A stretch of DNA of 64,000 nt from a virus (lineage: Duplodnaviria; Heunggongvirae; Uroviricota; Caudoviricetes), in the IMG/VR virus record IMGVR_UViG_3300025913_000024, positions 47,478-111,477 of that record; one strand, written 5' to 3'. Numbering within the stretch: position 1 is the stretch's first letter; every line of letters starts with the position of its first letter. Positions 28,224-39,917 of the stretch are shown here, in pieces. A model generated the notes under the pieces. The model saw nothing but the letters and a program-made list of their open reading frames with translations. It searched no databases and was not told the DNA's origin. A program made the position numbers and the translations under genes.

Positions 28224-28652
28224 ATGAGATTCACTCAAGAATGGTTTAGAAACTCACCACAAGAAGAAGTCAAGCTATTGAATGGTGAGGAAGTTTGGGT
28301 CTGCGATTACAGATTCACCTCATTAGGCAACAAGCCTATTCGAGTCATTGTTCCGACTCTTTGTATCATCCACGTCAGTTTTTACGTGGACAAGTACTAT
28401 CCTAGAGGAAACCCGATTCCTGTTGTAGAACTCAAGATCAAGAAGAACGGAAAAGATCTTAAGGTAGAAGACAACACAACGGCCTACAACAACTGGCTGA
28501 AGATCTTTAACGATGAACAAGAGTGCAGAGCTTTCTTCAGAGAACAAATGACCGAAAACCTTGATGACCTAGACGAGTGGGAAAAAGGTCAGATAGAAAG
28601 AGCTGCAGAACTCAGAGCTACAATGCACAAGCTCCTAAAGGAACACGGATGA
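28224..28652 (+). CDS. hypothetical protein (142 aa)
   Basis: Preceded by a 140-nt AT-rich spacer. Confidence 0.5.
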   Translation: MRFTQEWFRNSPQEEVKLLNGEEVWVCDYRFTSLGNKPIRVIVPTLCIIHVSFYVDKYYPRGNPIPVVELKIKKNGKDLKVEDNTTAYNNWLKIFNDEQECRAFFREQMTENLDDLDEWEKGQIERAAELRATMHKLLKEHG

Positions 28653-29449
28653 GCAACAAATTTAAGAACGATTCACTTGGAACAAGGATGAAGGAGAACT
28701 ATGAGAACAGATCAAAGATCTTTCTCCCTCGTAGAACCTACATCATCCTTCGTGTGGATGGCAAAGCTTTTCACACATACACGCGTGGTCTATTAAGGCC
28801 TTTCGACCAGGGTTTGGTCGAAGACATGGACGCTACGGCAATCTACCTTTGCAAGAACATCATGGGTGCTCAGTTCGCCTATGTACAGTCTGACGAGATC
28901 TCTATTCTTCTCACAGACTTTGACACCAACGAGACCCAATCTTGGTTTGACAACAATGTCCAGAAGCTTGCCTCAGTCTCTGCTTCTATGGCAACCTCAG
29001 CTTTCAACAAGGCCAGGATTTCAAGGTTCATGGCTACTACGACAGCAGTTCCTCTCGAGGATGCTGTGGACAAATTGACTTGGGCAGAGTTTGACTCTCG
29101 TGCCTTCCAGATCCCTCAGAAAGTTGAAGTAGAGAACTACTTCATCTGGCGTCAGCAGGATGCTACAAGAAACGCCATCTCCAGTGCTGCTCAATCTGTC
29201 TACTCCCACAAAGAACTTGAGGGAAAGTCTGGAGATGAGAAGCAAGAGATGATGTTTCAGAGAGGCATCAACTTCAACGACTATGATCCTAAGTACAAAA
29301 GAGGTCGTTTGATCGTTACAGAAACTTTTCCAAGTATCTCAGTTACATCAGGTGACATGGCAATTAGAACAAAATGGGTCTCCACGGCCGCTCCTATCTT
29401 CACTCAAGATAGAGATGATCTCTCTGATAGAATTCCAGAAAGTAGGTAA
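28649..29449 (+). CDS. Thg1-like protein (tRNA-His guanylyltransferase family 3'-5' nucleotidyltransferase)
   Basis: Start ATGA overlaps the upstream stop. Motifs ILRVDGKAFHTYTRG, YVQSDEISILL and QKLASVSASMATSAF match the Thg1 signatures VVRLDGRNFHRF, YGQSDEYSFVF and SKFMTHVASQFAS. Confidence 0.75.
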   Translation: MSNKFKNDSLGTRMKENYENRSKIFLPRRTYIILRVDGKAFHTYTRGLLRPFDQGLVEDMDATAIYLCKNIMGAQFAYVQSDEISILLTDFDTNETQSWFDNNVQKLASVSASMATSAFNKARISRFMATTTAVPLEDAVDKLTWAEFDSRAFQIPQKVEVENYFIWRQQDATRNAISSAAQSVYSHKELEGKSGDEKQEMMFQRGINFNDYDPKYKRGRLIVTETFPSISVTSGDMAIRTKWVSTAAPIFTQDRDDLSDRIPESR

Positions 29450-32189: not shown

Positions 32190-32768
32190 AGATTGCAGAA
32201 GCCCGTGAAAAAGTCAAAGATCTCATCTGGAACCAAGCTAATGTCTATGGTGACCAGATCATGAGTCGAGATACTCTCGACGCCATTCGTGCTGTTTTGA
32301 AAGACAGCCAGAGAAAAAGTCAAAGATCTCATCTGGAACCAAGCTAATGTCTATGGTGACCAGATCATGAGTCGAGATACTCTCGACGCCATTCGTGCTG
32401 TTTTGAAAGACAGCCAGAGAAACGCAAAGAAGACTCCCAAGATTGTCAAGACTCCTAATTTCATGGTAGGTCTTCCTAAGTTTGAAGGAAAGATCGGTGA
32501 AGAGATTCCTGTAAAGTTTGGAAACAAAGTTTACAAGACTAGAATCGACCACATGGGAACTCAAAGATTTCTCCCCATCCCCGGCTACGAAAAGTACGCT
32601 GAAGACTTCATGATCGATGGTGGACCTAACGAGTGGATAGCCCGTATGTACAAGGGAGAACTTACTAGTCAGGAAGTTTTCAATCGTAGAATCGGTGGTT
32701 ATAGTATCAGTGGTTTCTGTGATTGCTACCCTAGCTACCAGTGCATCAATCCTCTTTGGGAGACCTGA
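32186..32768 (+). pseudogene. gene disrupted by a perfect 106-bp tandem duplication (N-terminal 43-codon fragment plus restart at 32367)
   Basis: ATG 32186 reads MKIAEAREKVKDLIWNQANVYGDQIMSRDTLDAIRAVLKDSQR and then shifts frame into a stop. The second repeat copy restores the same protein from the internal Met 32367. Removing one copy gives a single intact 168-aa ORF. Confidence 0.7.
32211..32422 (+). repeat. perfect 2 x 106-bp direct tandem duplication
   Basis: 32211-32316 is identical to 32317-32422, read directly. The unit length is not a multiple of 3. Confidence 0.95.
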
Positions 32769-36638: not shown

Positions 36639-36901
36639 GTGGTCCAGCTCCAAAGCATGGACAACCTACCCACCATGAAGCTGTTCATCACGTTTATCTT
36701 ACTGTAGAACAGATGGAGAAGATGACAACTCAACGTCTTCTAGCTTACTTCAAGAAACACTTGATGCATGATCCATTCTATCCTTCCAGTGAAAAAGAAA
36801 AACATGACGAGTGGGAGATGGTTAGAGCTAAAGCTCAAAGTATACTATCAAGTAGAGAACATGTTCCTTCTAAGAGGGAACTCCAAAAGAGAAAGAAATG
36901 A
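36635..36901 (+). CDS. hypothetical protein (88 aa)
   Basis: ATGA overlap. Confidence 0.45.
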   Translation: MSGPAPKHGQPTHHEAVHHVYLTVEQMEKMTTQRLLAYFKKHLMHDPFYPSSEKEKHDEWEMVRAKAQSILSSREHVPSKRELQKRKK

Positions 36902-37320
36902 CACGATACGTTTTAGGTTTTCTTTTTGATGACGAAAAGAACACGGTCGTCTTGATCAAGAAAAACAAGCCTGTTTGGCAAAAAGGTCTCTTGAACGGTG
37001 TTGGTGGGAAGATCGAAGAAGGTGAACTTCCTATAGTCGCTATGGTAAGAGAGTTTGAAGAGGAAACGTCTGTGAAAACAGACAACCTTGATTGGAAGCA
37101 CTTTGCTGGTGTTGAAGGCGAAGGTTACTCCATCGCTTGTTTCTACACCATCAGTTCTGACTACATGAAAAACGTCAAGACCATGGAAGAAGAAGTGATC
37201 GAGATTCGTAGGATTCGAGATCTTCAAGATCTTCCTATAGTCTCCAATCTTCTTTGGTTGGTTCACCTTGCAAAAGATGAAAACAATGGTAACCATCCTA
37301 CTGTTCAAGTAAAGTACTAA
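36898..37320 (+). CDS. Nudix hydrolase
   Basis: Nudix box GGKIEEGELPIVAMVREFEEETSV fits Gx5Ex7REUxEExGU with G replaced by S in the last position. Confidence 0.65.
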   Translation: MTRYVLGFLFDDEKNTVVLIKKNKPVWQKGLLNGVGGKIEEGELPIVAMVREFEEETSVKTDNLDWKHFAGVEGEGYSIACFYTISSDYMKNVKTMEEEVIEIRRIRDLQDLPIVSNLLWLVHLAKDENNGNHPTVQVKY

Positions 37321-37354
37321 ATGACTGTTATTCTTCTGTGTGTACTAATTGTAC

Positions 37355-37816
37355 ATGAGAAGAACCTATAGAATAGAAAAGTCTTTAGATATTGAGGAGT
37401 TCATTAGAATAACTAATGAATCGTTAACCATGAAACAAGCTGCTGTGAAACTTGGTCTTCATTTTAATAGTTTCAGAAGAATAGCAGTAAAGTATGGAGT
37501 TTATCGACCTAATCGTGGAGGCAAAGGAACCCATAAGCATAAAGAAAATGGGACTACACCTCTTACTGAAATTTTGGAAGGAAACCATCCATCATATCAA
37601 ACGTTTAGATTAAAACTTAGATTAATTTCAGAAGGAATTTTTATTCCAGAATGTTCTGAATGCAAAAATACTCAATGGAATAAAAAAGAAATTCCTTTAG
37701 AGTTAGATCACATAGATGGAAATTCTTCTAACCATCTTTTAGACAACTTACGATTGTTATGTCCAAATTGTCATGCACAAACTGAGACGTATAGAGGAAA
37801 AAACAAAAAGTTTTGA
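37355..37816 (+). CDS. free-standing HNH homing endonuclease
   Basis: C-terminal HIDGNSSNHLLDNLRLLCPNCHAQTE (HNH with CxxC). N-terminal HTH-like segment. The gene is markedly AT-rich relative to its flanks. The ORF track starts at TTG 37349; the first ATG is at 37355. Confidence 0.7.
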   Translation: MRRTYRIEKSLDIEEFIRITNESLTMKQAAVKLGLHFNSFRRIAVKYGVYRPNRGGKGTHKHKENGTTPLTEILEGNHPSYQTFRLKLRLISEGIFIPECSECKNTQWNKKEIPLELDHIDGNSSNHLLDNLRLLCPNCHAQTETYRGKNKKF

Positions 37817-37825
37817 GATATTACT
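37814..37825 (+). promoter_or_regulatory. TGAGATATTACT promoter-like motif upstream of the tRNA-like gene
   Basis: Motif variant 11 nt before the tRNA-like 5' end; overlaps the HNH stop codon. Confidence 0.4.
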
Positions 37826-37836
37826 CAAGCAAGTGA

Positions 37837-37947
37837 GCGGGAGTGGAGAAATGGTGAGACTCAGCGGACTTATGAATGCATTCTAACTAGTGCATTGAAT
37901 AAATCCGCTGCTTAAGAGGCGTGCCGGTTCGAGTCCGGTCTCCCGCA
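37837..37947 (+). tRNA. tRNA-like gene with a long variable arm and a roughly 28-nt hairpin insertion in the anticodon loop (possible intron-containing or degenerate tRNA)
   Basis: Acceptor GCGGGAG pairs with CTCCCGC followed by discriminator A. Canonical T-arm GCCGG-TTCGAGT-CCGGT. D-arm GAG/CTC with a GG-containing loop. Anticodon stem GCGGA/TCCGC is separated by 35 nt instead of 7; the first 7 nt CTTATGA would give anticodon UAU. A 14-nt variable region is present. Confidence 0.4.
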
Positions 37948-37995
37948 GAAGTTGGACCGTAGAGTTCAACGATTTCCCAAAGAGGAGGATAACCA

Positions 37996-38448
37996 ATGAG
38001 TTATCTCACTGCTACTACTCAGGACATTCAGGACGTCGCTAAGACCCTGATTTATGCCACTGACAAGACCACGTCCCGCGACATTCTGGAGAAGATGCGC
38101 GCCGACAATTACTGGATCAACCAGACCGAGGTCGCTGCTGCGCTTCGTGATCTTCTGGCCACGGATCCTTCCTACGTTCGGACCTTTCAGCCCGATGCCT
38201 CGGTTCCTACCGGTGGCTACTTCATCTACGGCCTTGCGAGCGTGATCAAGACCACGGCCTCTGCCCCTGTCTACCCTGCGAAGGTGAAGAAGGTTCAGAC
38301 TGTTGGTGACTACGAAGCTCGTGACAAGAACGATCCCAACTGGACCCTCGTTCGTTACGACAACGTCACCGAGAACCAGGCCAAGCATCTCTTCTCCGAA
38401 GAGTACGGCGTCGCCTACACTGACGTTCGCGTCAAGAAGGCTGTCTAA
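37996..38448 (+). CDS. hypothetical protein on a GC-rich island (150 aa)
   Basis: RBS AGAGGAGGA. Codon usage and GC differ strongly from the flanks. Followed by a hairpin at 38456-38476. Confidence 0.6.
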   Translation: MSYLTATTQDIQDVAKTLIYATDKTTSRDILEKMRADNYWINQTEVAAALRDLLATDPSYVRTFQPDASVPTGGYFIYGLASVIKTTASAPVYPAKVKKVQTVGDYEARDKNDPNWTLVRYDNVTENQAKHLFSEEYGVAYTDVRVKKAV

Positions 38449-38706: not shown

Positions 38707-39917
38707 ATGGCCCGTATTGAAAAGCTGATCATGGTGACCGGTGAAGAGAATCACAACAAGGTCTATGAGCTGATCGACAACGAGAACGGTACTTGTACCG
38801 CCAAGTGGGGTCGGGTTGGCGCTGCTCTTCAGGAGTGCAACTACCCCATCAGCGAGTTTGAAAAGAAGCTCAAGGAAAAGGTCAAGAAGGGCTATCGCGT
38901 GATCACCGATCTTCTGTCTGTCGAGAAAAGTGATGGTAAGACCACCACTACGGACGACGAAGAGGTAAAGATCCAGAACATGTCCCGTGAGGCCATGGAG
39001 TTGATCAACTTCCTCCAGAGTTGTGCTAAGGCATCGTCAAGCAGAACTACACCGTCAAAGTTGCCGACGTTACTCAGAAGCAGATCGACGCTGCTCAGGC
39101 CATCCTGGACGGACTGGTTGCTCTGTCCAACCAGAACTGGTCTCGTGAAGAGGCCAACAAGATCCTTTTGGATCTTTACAACACCATCCCCCGGAAGATG
39201 AGCAACACCAAGAACTTCCTCATCCAGATCGACAACATCACGAAGAAGCGCCTTCAGGAGTTGATCTCCAGTGAAGCCGATCTTCTTGACGTTATGCGCG
39301 GTCAGGTTCAGACCACGAACGTTGCTCCCAAGTCTTCCACTGGCGAAGTCAAGTTGGATATTGAGATTCGTCTCGCTACTCCCGATGAGATCGATGAGAT
39401 CTCCAAGAAGACTGACTTTGATGTTCGTAGTGCTGCAAGGATCTATCGGGTGGAGAACACCAAGACCAAGAATCGCTACGAAAGTATCAACAAGCAGAAT
39501 GAACAGCTTCTCTACCACGGTTCTCGCAGCCAGAACTGGTGGTCGATCATCAACGGCGGTTTGAAGATTCGTCCGACCAACGCCGTTCACACTGGCTCGA
39601 TGTTCTCCGATGGTATCTACGCTGCTGACAAAGCTCAGAAGTCTCTCGGTTACACCGACGGTGGTTATTGGACTGGTAGCAGTGGTTCCTCGAAGAGGTT
39701 CCTCGGCATCTACAGTTTCAACCTCGGTCGTCAGTGGGATCTGTTCGCTGGTGGTCAGCGTCATGCCAGCTGGATGATGCAGCTCAACCTGAAGAAGATC
39801 AACGACAAGGGTTTTGACTCTCTGTTCGCTAAGGGTGGAGCAGATCTTCGCAACAATGAGATGATCGTGTTCGAAGAGGCTCGCTGCACCATCAAGTATC
39901 TGATCGAGATGCGTTAA
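38707..39917 (+). pseudogene. PARP-like ADP-ribosyltransferase (WGR domain, helical region, H-Y-E catalytic domain), split by a -1 frame change near 39027-39032
   Basis: N-terminal WGR motif TAKWGRVGA. C-terminal LLYHGSRSQNWWSIINGGLKIRP ... GSMFSDGIYAADKAQKS ... NEMIVFEEARCTIKYLIE parallels PARP1 [23 protein letters not shown] ... GYMFGKGIYFADMVSKS ... NEYIVYDIAQVNLKYLLK. Frame 1 turns into Ser/Thr/Arg-rich nonsense after ...FLQSCAK. Frame 0 is open from 39030 and reads as sensible protein. A single continuous 403-codon gene needs a 1-nt change. Confidence 0.75.

What the first reader, a model, noticed from the sequence alone, without database searches (positions are those of the whole stretch)
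37355..37947. HNH homing endonuclease abutting an aberrant tRNA-like gene
An AT-rich free-standing HNH endonuclease (HIDGNSSNH...CPNCH) ends 20 nt before a tRNA-like gene. That gene has a canonical acceptor stem, D-arm, T-arm (GGTTCGAGTCC) and long variable arm, but its anticodon stem halves are separated by 35 nt. The 35 nt comprise a 7-nt loop-like CTTATGA (anticodon UAU) followed by a hairpin AATGCA-N10-TGCATT. The insertion sits at the canonical 37/38 intron position. Candidates are a bulge-helix-bulge-type mini-intron, an endonuclease-insertion scar that inactivated the tRNA, or a tRNA-derived regulatory RNA. The promoter-like motif at 37814 precedes it.
Basis: partly seen in the sequence, partly recalled or inferred. 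Interest (0 to 1): 0.6.

Follow-up and report, generated by a model that had tools for sequence, protein, structure and literature searches.

The report
Homing endonuclease beside hairpin-interrupted phage tRNA-Leu
A jumbo phage carries a selfish DNA-cutting enzyme gene next to a leucine tRNA gene whose anticodon loop is split by a 28-base hairpin. The hairpin sits one base from where relatives of that enzyme live inside a self-splicing intron, and it belongs to a recurring, unexplained class of mini-inserts in phage tRNA genes.

Summary
An intact, AT-rich HNH ORF (37355-37816) ends 20 nt before a cloverleaf RNA gene (37837-47). That gene scores above the Rfam tRNA threshold, but 35 nt separate its anticodon-stem halves.

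The interpretation needs revision. The RNA is a class II tRNA-Leu(UAA) gene, not tRNA-Ile(UAU). Its loop CUUA|AAA is interrupted between A35 and A36 by a 28-nt hairpin.

The HNH belongs to a large family tied to tRNA-Leu(UAA) genes. Its closest relatives (62-63% identity) are encoded inside the classical U34/A35 group I intron. Many others abut such tRNA genes.

The insert is not a group I intron, and it fits the BHB motif poorly. It is one of a recurrent phage class of 21-62-nt hairpin inserts. In a sister family, intact and interrupted alleles coexist, the hairpin covaries and the exons stay conserved.

Most likely the insert splits the endonuclease's homing site, which makes the resident allele immune. 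Sister-family conservation suggests the RNA is still used, perhaps after protein-mediated excision. That step is inferred, not shown.

The parts
37355..37816 (+). HNH homing endonuclease gene (153 aa), free-standing and AT-rich (31.8% GC)
   Evidence: ORF list. Pfam HNH. phrog_10822 at 1.6e-31. The CxxC...DH...N...CPNCH residues are invariant in alignment A2. There are 2346 homologs at E<=1e-20, and the closest (62-63% identity) lie inside tRNA-Leu(UAA) introns.
37813..37828 (+). Small inverted repeat TTGAG-ATATTA-CTCAA that overlaps the HNH stop codon, in the 20-nt spacer region
   Evidence: Read from the sequence. The motif UUGAG with the stop codon in the same register also ends intron-borne homologs, for example L035 ...AAATTGAGTGCC. 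This is a weak resemblance only.
37837..37872 (+). tRNA-Leu(UAA) 5' part: acceptor 5' strand, D arm, anticodon-stem 5' strand GCGGA, and loop bases C32 U33 U34 A35
   Evidence: Rfam tRNA 42 bits. ARAGORN with introns allowed. Alignment with phage tRNA-Leu(UAA) genes.
37873..37900 (+). 28-nt AT-rich insert TGAATGCATTCTAACTAGTGCATTGAAT between A35 and A36. It includes an 8-bp hairpin (37875-37882 pairs with 37889-37896).
   Evidence: Unique in the window. Fold results. No group I match at E<=10. Aligns loosely with the 21-22-nt hairpin inserts of family A.
37901..37947 (+). tRNA-Leu(UAA) 3' part: A36 A37 A38, anticodon-stem 3' strand TCCGC, long variable arm, T arm, acceptor 3' strand and A73. 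No CCA is encoded.

Best explanation
The ORF is an active-looking HNH homing endonuclease from a family whose home is the tRNA-Leu(UAA) gene. Its nearest relatives are encoded inside the group I intron that splits the anticodon loop at U34/A35. Many others sit directly 5' or 3' of tRNA-Leu(UAA) genes.

The neighbouring RNA gene is a class II tRNA-Leu(UAA) gene. Its loop CUUAAAA is interrupted between A35 and A36 by a 28-nt hairpin, one base from the classical intron site.

Proposed mechanism:
1. (Inferred from intron-borne relatives) The endonuclease cuts uninterrupted tRNA-Leu(UAA) genes of competing phages at ...RGACUU^AAAAUCY....
2. (Inferred; supported by comparative statistics) The hairpin insert separates the two half-sites in the resident copy. 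That copy is then immune, and HNH plus immune allele are inherited and spread as one cassette, as in intronless homing.
3. (Inferred only from sister families) The interrupted gene is not a dead relic. It is transcribed, probably with the HNH mRNA, and folds as a tRNA with an extended anticodon arm. The hairpin is most likely removed by a protein cut-and-rejoin route of the phage RNA-repair type, restoring CUUAAAA. No enzyme has been identified for the cutting step.
For: tRNA identity:
- Rfam tRNA scores 42 bits.
- The gene is class II with A73, and it aligns with tRNA-Leu(UAA) as CUUA[28]AAA.

Link between the HNH family and tRNA-Leu:
- In Edwardsiella phage PEi20 and huge phage LR756502, homologs abut tRNA-Leu(taa).
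- Of 80 viral loci fetched by HNH similarity alone, about 50 have a tRNA-Leu(taa) touching or enclosing the HNH.
- The HNH lies inside 650-700-nt tRNA-Leu introns in L031, L035, L053, L061, L069 and L106. It lies next to ~200-nt introns in L043, L066, L078-81 and L107.
- Rfam Intron_gpI scores above gathering in L035, L043, L068, L078, L081, L089, L094 and L232.
- The window's closest homologs, P0004, P0010 and P0002, are all intron-borne.

The same module occurs elsewhere: HNH (49-50% identity) ends 2-20 nt before a tRNA-Leu with a 21-nt hairpin insert in L007, L013 and L022.

Immunity:
- All 16 intron-bearing tRNA-Leu listed, and all 3 independently ascertained short-insert tRNA-Leu, have R29-G30-A31/U39-C40-Y41.
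- Only 2 of the 28 HNH-adjacent intact ones do.
- The window has GGA/UCC.

Function of interrupted alleles (family A):
- Intact CTTAAAA alleles of the same tRNA exist.
- Between L013 and L007 the exons are 86/87 identical, against 17/21 for the insert and 77.5% for the HNH DNA.
- The cloverleaf plus insert hairpin is 97.8% paired, with 12 pairs changed on both sides, 3 of them in the insert helix. Slid controls give 0-3.
- Family B (L021 and L141) shows compensatory changes by eye.

Sealing enzyme: T4 Rnl1-type RNA ligase genes lie in family A and C phages.

tRNA repair in this phage: the window encodes a Thg1-like tRNA repair enzyme.
Against: - No relative of this particular phage is available. 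The nearest HNH is 63% identical, and the only other copies of the locus are the same contig. Constraint on the window's own tRNA is therefore untested.
- No endonuclease that could excise the hairpin is known. No RNA ligase was found in this 64 kb.
- Rnl1 occurs equally in phages with intact alleles, so it does not discriminate.
- Many HNH genes abut intact tRNA-Leu genes. An insert is therefore not required for coexistence.
- The R-G-A rule could instead reflect the intron's own P1 pairing needs.
- In family A the insert also occurs without any HNH nearby (L121, L146, L185, L225). The insert is therefore not simply a by-product of this endonuclease.
- Insert positions differ between families (32/33 in L045; 34/35 or 35/36 in others), which argues against a single ruler-type enzyme.
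- Most family A and B members were found with a pattern that required GGACTTA...AAATCC, so conservation of the loop flanks is partly ascertainment.
Confidence: 0.5

Rival explanations
1. Dead tRNA gene. The 28-nt hairpin is a scar, from imprecise repair after endonuclease cleavage or from collapse of a former group I intron. It inactivated a dispensable phage tRNA-Leu(UAA). The gene still looks perfect only because the event is recent.
For: - The insert sits one base from the intron or homing site, and the exon context is the 'intron-type' GGA/UCC.
- The arrangements [HNH][exon-200-nt intron-exon] (L043, L068) and [HNH][exon-short insert-exon] look like a decay series.
- No splicing route for such inserts is known in bacteria.
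- No such inserts were found in 185,579 bacterial and archaeal genomes.
- Phage tRNAs are accessory genes.
Against: - The inserts show no significant similarity to end-joined group I introns. The window scores 15/29 matches, and 75 of 300 shuffles do as well.
- Every stem of the window tRNA is fully paired.
- In family A the interrupted allele has persisted while the insert and HNH diverged about 20%. Its exons stayed 99% identical, and stems, including the insert hairpin, kept pairing through compensatory changes.
Confidence: 0.22
2. A functional RNA that is never spliced. It would be a tRNA-shaped RNA with an extended anticodon arm used for something other than decoding. Examples are an RNase P/RNase Z processing signal that trims the HNH transcript, or a leucylatable non-decoding tRNA or decoy.
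For: - The hairpin structure itself is conserved by covariation, which a mere spacer would not need.
- The gene lies 20 nt after the HNH stop with no promoter match of its own, so co-transcription is likely.
- By established knowledge, bacterial LeuRS does not read the anticodon.
Against: - Intact alleles of the same tRNA occupy the same locus in sister phages. This suggests the locus's job is ordinary tRNA-Leu(UAA) supply.
- Removing the insert restores exactly the canonical CUUAAAA loop in the independently ascertained cases: the window, L041/L042 and L045.
Confidence: 0.18
3. One reading: an archaeal/eukaryal-type bulge-helix-bulge intron at 37/38 in a tRNA with anticodon UAU, cut by a splicing endonuclease.
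For: - ARAGORN with introns allowed places a 28-nt intron at 37/38 and calls tRNA-Ile(tat).
- The strand lengths fit helix-bulge(3)-helix(4)-bulge(2-3)-helix. This is my reading.
Against: - The central helix has only 2 Watson-Crick pairs of 4 (C.U, U-A, U-A, A.G).
- The BHB-like fold is -9.7 kcal/mol against -16.5 for the MFE.
- A class II body with A73 does not fit tRNA-Ile.
- G37 after U36 is atypical.
- Families A and B do not fit BHB at all, and U37 would result in family A (sequences).
- The phage has bacterial hallmarks.
- No tRNA-intron endonuclease domain was found among 58 window ORFs scanned.
Confidence: 0.04

Closest known systems
HNH homing endonucleases encoded in the tRNA-Leu(UAA) group I intron (34/35), reported for Bacteroidota in PMC13011429; the classical cyanobacterial/plastid tRNA-Leu(UAA) intron
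   Same: - It is the same protein family. The nearest homologs (62-63% identity) lie inside such introns, with boundaries ...GGACTT|A...GGTAAG|AAAATCC.
- The same tRNA species is involved.
- The same anticodon-loop site is involved, to within one base.
   Different: - Here the HNH is outside the tRNA gene, 5' of it.
- The interruption is 28 nt and has no ribozyme (no Rfam group I match).
- It has no terminal G.
- It lies at 35/36 rather than 34/35.
Free-standing homing endonucleases in phage tRNA clusters, e.g. T4 SegB (GIY-YIG), which cleaves tRNA genes of T2-like phages and drives preferential inheritance of the T4 tRNA region (PMC2330249)
   Same: - The endonuclease gene lies between genes in a tRNA region.
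- The presumed target is a tRNA gene of competitors.
- It is presumably inherited together with neighbouring markers.
- Its distribution among related phages is patchy.
   Different: - The nuclease family differs (HNH).
- SegB recognises the T-arm motif, whereas the inferred target here is the anticodon loop.
- In T4 no insert is involved in protecting the resident tRNA genes.
'Enigmatic introns' in tRNA genes of Lak megaphages and other huge phages (bioRxiv 10.1101/356790)
   Same: - Large phage genomes carry tRNA genes that bacterial tRNA predictors miss because of inserts in the anticodon region.
- Presence/absence alleles exist, and the sequence is conserved.
- The mechanism is unknown.
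   Different: That report does not link the inserts to a homing endonuclease or to a group I intron site. Its introns occur in other tRNA species (Thr, Phe, Gly, Tyr). I could not compare the sequences.
Archaeal/eukaryal BHB tRNA introns
   Same: A short intron in the anticodon loop that pairs with anticodon bases and extends the anticodon arm.
   Different: - The BHB motif is poorly met.
- The position that restores the expected anticodon is 35/36, not 37/38.
- The host is bacterial.
- The many archaeal tRNA-Leu hits of the metagenome scan read CUUAAG|...|A, which is unlike this gene.

Membership tests
tRNA (Rfam RF00005) | Covariance-model score at or above the gathering threshold; cloverleaf with all four stems | tested here: met
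   42 bits against a gathering score of 29, covering model positions 1-71. ARAGORN with introns allowed draws a full cloverleaf.
tRNA (Rfam RF00005) | 7-nt anticodon loop in the gene, or a recognised intron type | tested here: not met
   35 nt lie between the stem halves. ARAGORN by default, and Rfam with standard filters on the whole window, find nothing.
Bacterial-type tRNA-Leu(UAA) | Class II long variable arm, A73, Leu-type D arm, and loop CUUAAAA | tested here: met
   There is a 14-nt variable arm with a 4-bp stem, and A73. The alignment to phage tRNA-Leu(taa) genes places CUUA and AAA on either side of the 28 nt. The loop is met only after removal of 37873-37900.
Bacterial-type tRNA-Leu(UAA) | Leucylation and decoding of UUA/UUG | not testable with these tools
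   Needs RNA and aminoacylation assays.
Group I intron | Ribozyme core (P3-P8) detectable by RF00028; length of about 200 nt or more | tested here: not met
   There is no Intron_gpI match at E<=10 in 37300-38300, and the insert is 28 nt. True introns in sister loci score 52-72 bits.
Group I intron | 5' splice site after U34 paired to an internal guide; terminal G before the 3' exon AAAA | tested here: not met
   The insert ends ...GAAU and is followed by only AAA. Only a 35/36 position restores UAA.
Group I intron | Sequence descent from an intron (deletion derivative) | tested here: inconclusive
   The best end-joined intron match is 15/29, and 75 of 300 shuffles reach it. The shared 5' ATGAA with L078, L107 and L141 is too short to count.
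BHB (archaeal/eukaryal) tRNA intron | Two 3-nt bulges separated by a 4-bp helix, flanked by helices; splice site usually at 37/38 | tested here: not met
   The lengths fit, but the central helix has 2 of 4 pairs, and the fold is 6.8 kcal/mol above the MFE. The resulting UAU anticodon is inconsistent with the class II body.
BHB (archaeal/eukaryal) tRNA intron | A splicing endonuclease available in the virus or the host | tested here: inconclusive
   No such Pfam domain was found among 58 window ORFs. The other 240 kb of the genome and the host are unseen.
HNH homing endonuclease | beta-beta-alpha-Me HNH motif with zinc-binding cysteines intact | tested here: met
   C100, C103, H119, N131, C136, C139 and H140 are invariant in alignment A2. 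Pfam HNH and PHROG HNH both match.
HNH homing endonuclease | Patchy presence at a conserved locus, foreign composition, association with a specific target gene or intron | tested here: met
   - GC is 31.8% against 43.7% for the window.
- In family A the HNH is present in L007, L013 and L022 and absent in L121, L146, L185, L225 and L239-245 at the same tRNA.
- The association with tRNA-Leu(taa) holds across about 50 of 80 loci.
HNH homing endonuclease | Site-specific cleavage or nicking of the cognate uninterrupted allele, and immunity of the resident allele | not testable with these tools
   There is only indirect support. The R-G-A anticodon-stem context occurs in 19 of 19 interrupted alleles and 2 of the 28 intact HNH-adjacent alleles.

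The most novel reading that the evidence does not exclude
Phages have a third kind of tRNA intron. These would be 21-62-nt hairpin 'mini-introns' in the anticodon loop that are neither self-splicing nor BHB-type. They would be excised and resealed by protein enzymes, such as an unidentified endonuclease plus phage Pnkp/Rnl1-type RNA-repair enzymes. They would be retained because they make the tRNA gene immune to anticodon-loop homing endonucleases. This would give phage RNA-repair enzymes a housekeeping splicing role.
Probability: 0.22. Interest if true: 0.9.

Novelty: new variant of a known kind. Interest (0 to 1): 0.62.

Why it matters
If the hairpin is simply an immunity plug, this is a clean natural example of a gene escaping a homing endonuclease by interrupting its own target without carrying a ribozyme. 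It also shows an intron-borne endonuclease that has moved out of its intron.

If the interrupted tRNA is matured, as exon conservation and hairpin covariation in the sister family suggest, bacteria-infecting viruses would have protein-dependent tRNA splicing. That would explain the 'enigmatic introns' reported in huge phages. It would also give a physiological substrate to phage RNA ligase and healing enzymes.

In practice, standard bacterial tRNA predictors miss these genes, so phage tRNA repertoires are undercounted.

Tried and rejected
1. Close relatives of the locus. Megablast and tblastn against GenBank phages found nothing for the region or the downstream ORF. A viral-contig pattern for this tRNA found nothing. 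Neighbour-protein scans gave only weak hits or none. The exact-protein look-up returned only the same 305-kb contig. No comparative test on the window's own tRNA was therefore possible.
2. Insert as a repeated element in the window: it occurs only once.
3. Insert as a deletion derivative of group I introns: not better than shuffles for any of 7 inserts. A gap-tolerant alignment to L068 was uninformative.
4. BHB motif: rejected for the window, on energy and pairing, and for families A and B. L015 and L016, from the pattern scan, do look BHB-compatible and probably archaeal, so they were set aside. Most metagenome pattern hits were archaeal tRNA-Leu genes with canonical introns and were also set aside.
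5. TA target-site duplication or MITE idea: this fits six inserts but not the window, L016 or family A, so it was dropped.
6. Neighbouring PARP-like gene as a Tpt1-type splicing enzyme: rejected. It is a WGR+PARP1-like protein.
7. RNA ligase as a discriminator: Rnl1 homologs occur with both intact and interrupted alleles, and none lies in the window.
8. Solved-structure relatives of the HNH: none by sequence.
9. Literature: there is no report of short hairpin inserts at the tRNA-Leu intron site in phages.

Full report
**1. What is there**

The window is part of a 305,853-bp metagenomic contig (ENA ERZ27252312, k141_4393686). A sibling copy is 99.96% identical, and identical across the region of interest. 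PHROG hits to RIIA, ribonucleotide reductase, major head and tail proteins mark it as a large tailed phage. An M23 peptidase and a strong Shine-Dalgarno sequence ahead of the next gene point to a bacterial host.

The HNH ORF runs from ATG 37355 to the TGA at 37814-37816.
- It has all the zinc and catalytic residues of the HNH motif.
- It matches Pfam HNH and phrog_10822 at 1.6e-31.
- It has 31.8% GC against 43.7% for the window.

Twenty bases after the stop codon begins a 111-nt cloverleaf (37837-37947). Rfam scores it as tRNA at 42 bits (threshold 29) with a 31-nt insertion in the anticodon loop. ARAGORN sees it only when introns are allowed. It is the only tRNA-like gene in the 64 kb.

**2. 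Which tRNA**

ARAGORN places a 28-nt intron at 37/38 and reads anticodon UAU. The body argues against that reading:
- It is class II, with a 14-nt variable arm containing a 4-bp stem.
- It has A73 and a Leu-type D arm.
- Aligned with tRNA-Leu genes of phages PEi20 and LR756502, the loop reads CUUA[28 nt]AAA.

Only removal of 37873-37900, between A35 and A36, restores the canonical CUUAAAA loop.

**3. What the HNH is**

- tblastn against GenBank phages puts homologs directly beside tRNA-Leu(taa) in Edwardsiella phage PEi20 (49% identity) and in a 642-kb uncultured phage (60%). It also finds homologs in T5-like phages.
- A profile scan of IMG/VR returned 559 relatives, of which 80 loci were kept.
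- In about 50 of the 80, a tRNA-Leu(taa) touches the HNH gene on one side or encloses it.
- In L031, L035, L053, L061, L069 and L106 the HNH lies inside a 650-700-nt intron of tRNA-Leu(taa).
- In L043, L066, L078-81 and L107 it lies next to a tRNA-Leu with a ~200-nt intron.
- Rfam confirms group I ribozymes in these introns.
- The intron boundaries are the classical ...GGACUU|A...GGUAAG|AAAAUCC, at U34/A35.
- In the 5.8-billion-protein collection the window's HNH has 2346 homologs at E<=1e-20. None is closer than 63% identity.
- The three closest that I looked up (P0004, P0010, P0002) are all intron-borne in tRNA-Leu(taa). One of them sits beside a tmRNA gene, so it is probably on a bacterial chromosome.

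HNH genes in tRNA-Leu(UAA) introns of Bacteroidota are reported in PMC13011429. Free-standing endonucleases that target tRNA genes in phage tRNA clusters have a precedent in T4 SegB (PMC2330249).

**4. The insert is one of a recurrent class**

A pattern scan for GGACTTA-N-AAATCC-N-GGTTCGANTCC in viral contigs and metagenomes found further bacterial-type class II tRNA-Leu genes with short hairpin inserts after CUUA:

| Family | Insert length | Loci |
|---|---|---|
| A | 21-22 nt | L007, L013, L022, L121, L146, L185, L225, L175 |
| B | 35-36 nt | L021, L141 |
| C | 26 nt | L011, L019 |

- The HNH-based sample did not select on tRNA sequence. It independently recovered family A (L041/L042). It also recovered a 62-nt insert at 32/33 (L045, L046, L082).
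- In L007, L013 and L022 an HNH 49-50% identical to the window's ends 2-20 nt before the interrupted tRNA. This is the same module as in the window.
- The other family A loci have no HNH nearby.
- A scan anchored only on family A stems found seven contigs with the same tRNA and an intact CTTAAAA loop. This fixes the insert between A35 and A36 and shows that it is a presence/absence polymorphism.
- A bacterial-type version of the pattern found no such gene in 185,579 bacterial and archaeal genomes. The five hits are duplications.
- Short inserts also occur in other phage tRNA species.
- Devoto et al. noted 'enigmatic introns' in megaphage tRNAs (10.1101/356790).

**5. Are interrupted alleles alive?**

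Comparison of L013 with L007:

| Segment | Identity |
|---|---|
| tRNA exons | 86/87 |
| Insert | 17/21 |
| HNH DNA | 77.5% |
| Outer flanks | 39-62% |

At the HNH rate about 19 exon differences would be expected.

Across six family A genes, the cloverleaf plus insert hairpin has 97.8% of cells paired. Twelve pairs changed on both sides, three of them in the five-pair insert helix. Slid-partner controls give 0-3 such pairs, and none of 500 shuffles reaches the observed value. The sample is small, and most members were found with a pattern that fixed the loop flanks. The stems outside the pattern are nevertheless clearly maintained.

This argues that, in family A, the interrupted gene still makes a structured, selected RNA. 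For the window's own gene no relatives exist, so only its flawless stems can be cited.

**6. What the insert is not**

- It is not a group I intron. It is 28 nt, has no ribozyme match, has no terminal G, and is one base off the intron site.
- It is not demonstrably a collapsed intron. End-joined intron sequences match it no better than shuffles do.
- It is not a good BHB intron. The strand lengths fit, but the central helix has 2 of 4 pairs, the BHB-like fold is 6.8 kcal/mol worse than the MFE, and families A and B do not fit at all.
- It is not a repeated element of this genome region.

**7. Why it may be there**

In the HNH-ascertained sample, all 16 intron-bearing tRNA-Leu listed have R29-G30-A31 paired to U39-C40-Y41. 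So do all three independent short-insert cases (window, family A, L045). Of the 28 intact tRNA-Leu(taa) genes lying within 100 nt of an HNH gene, only two have this context. The rest carry compensated changes in the last stem pairs, such as GCA/UGC, GGU/ACC and GAA/UUC.

The simplest reading is that the endonuclease recognises ...RGACUU^AAAAUCY.... A resident tRNA-Leu could then coexist with it in three ways: by carrying the intron, by carrying a short insert, or by changing the stem. The alternative is that R-G-A merely reflects the intron's P1 pairing. That alternative does not explain the ribozyme-free short-insert cases, but there are only three of them.

**8. How the RNA could be matured**

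This step is inferred. The two ends of each hairpin lie in or beside the helix formed by U33-U34-A35 and the 3' bases.

- Phages of families A and C encode T4 Rnl1-type ligase, the enzyme class that seals anticodon-loop breaks. It occurs with intact alleles as well.
- The window encodes a Thg1-like tRNA 5'-end repair enzyme. No ligase was found in the 64 kb that I could see.
- No candidate endonuclease was found.
- The PARP-like neighbour is a true WGR-PARP, not a Tpt1.

**9. Verdict**

It is a homing endonuclease of the tRNA-Leu(UAA)-intron family, now free-standing. It is linked to a tRNA-Leu(UAA) allele whose homing site is occupied by a small structured insert.

Shown:
- the identity of the tRNA and of the HNH;
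- the family's link to tRNA-Leu(UAA) genes and their intron;
- that such inserts recur in phages.

Still inference:
- the immunity role;
- any splicing of the RNA.

Noticed in passing
window 28577-29449 (+): A Thg1-like tRNA-His guanylyltransferase / 3'-5' polymerase gene (Pfam Thg1 2.1e-27 plus Thg1C; phrog_4717 3.8e-80). This is a phage-encoded tRNA 5'-end repair or maturation enzyme in a stretch with only one, interrupted, tRNA gene.
   Followed up: partly
window 38707-39917 (+): A WGR + PARP1-like ADP-ribosyltransferase gene. It is split into two frames in the window by a 1-nt deletion near 39030. In the sibling contig L006 it is a single 403-aa ORF. A NUDIX gene (36898-37320) and a Macro-domain ORF elsewhere in the window suggest an ADP-ribose module.
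   Followed up: partly
window ~32302-32316 vs L006 949-1068: The sibling contig carries about 120 extra bases here. This is a repeat copy-number difference between two assemblies of the same phage.
   Followed up: no
L121 5213-5665, 5686-6549, 6554-7153: A T4 Rnl1-family RNA ligase gene is split in two by an ORF with a NUMOD3 motif. This is probably another homing endonuclease or intron inside the ligase gene.
   Followed up: no
L073 2598-2717; also L097 2647-2783 and L049 2883-3028: Other phage tRNA-like genes carry 46-60-nt inserts in the anticodon loop. The tRNA-Thr(GGU) insert contains a T-arm-like hairpin (CCAG-TTCGACT-CTGG), reminiscent of the Lak-phage tRNA-Thr intron said to 'encode a possible tRNA'.
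   Followed up: no
L015 3791-3894 and 10838-10939; L016 1763-1875, 2284-2397 and 2494-2635: These viral contigs have several tRNA genes with 27-56-nt introns. At least some fit the archaeal bulge-helix-bulge geometry at 37/38, so they are probably archaeal viruses.
   Followed up: partly
L078 1184-1454, L107 1160-1434, L066, L079-L081: These are class I (short variable loop) tRNAs with loop CUU|AAAA and a ~200-nt group I intron, lying next to the HNH. A class I body with a UAA anticodon is unusual for bacterial-type tRNA-Leu.
   Followed up: no
window 37813-37828 (+): The inverted repeat TTGAG-ATATTA-CTCAA overlaps the HNH stop codon. The UUGAG motif sits in the same register as the internal-guide-like sequence that ends intron-borne homologs. 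It may be a relic of life inside the intron, or chance.
   Followed up: partly
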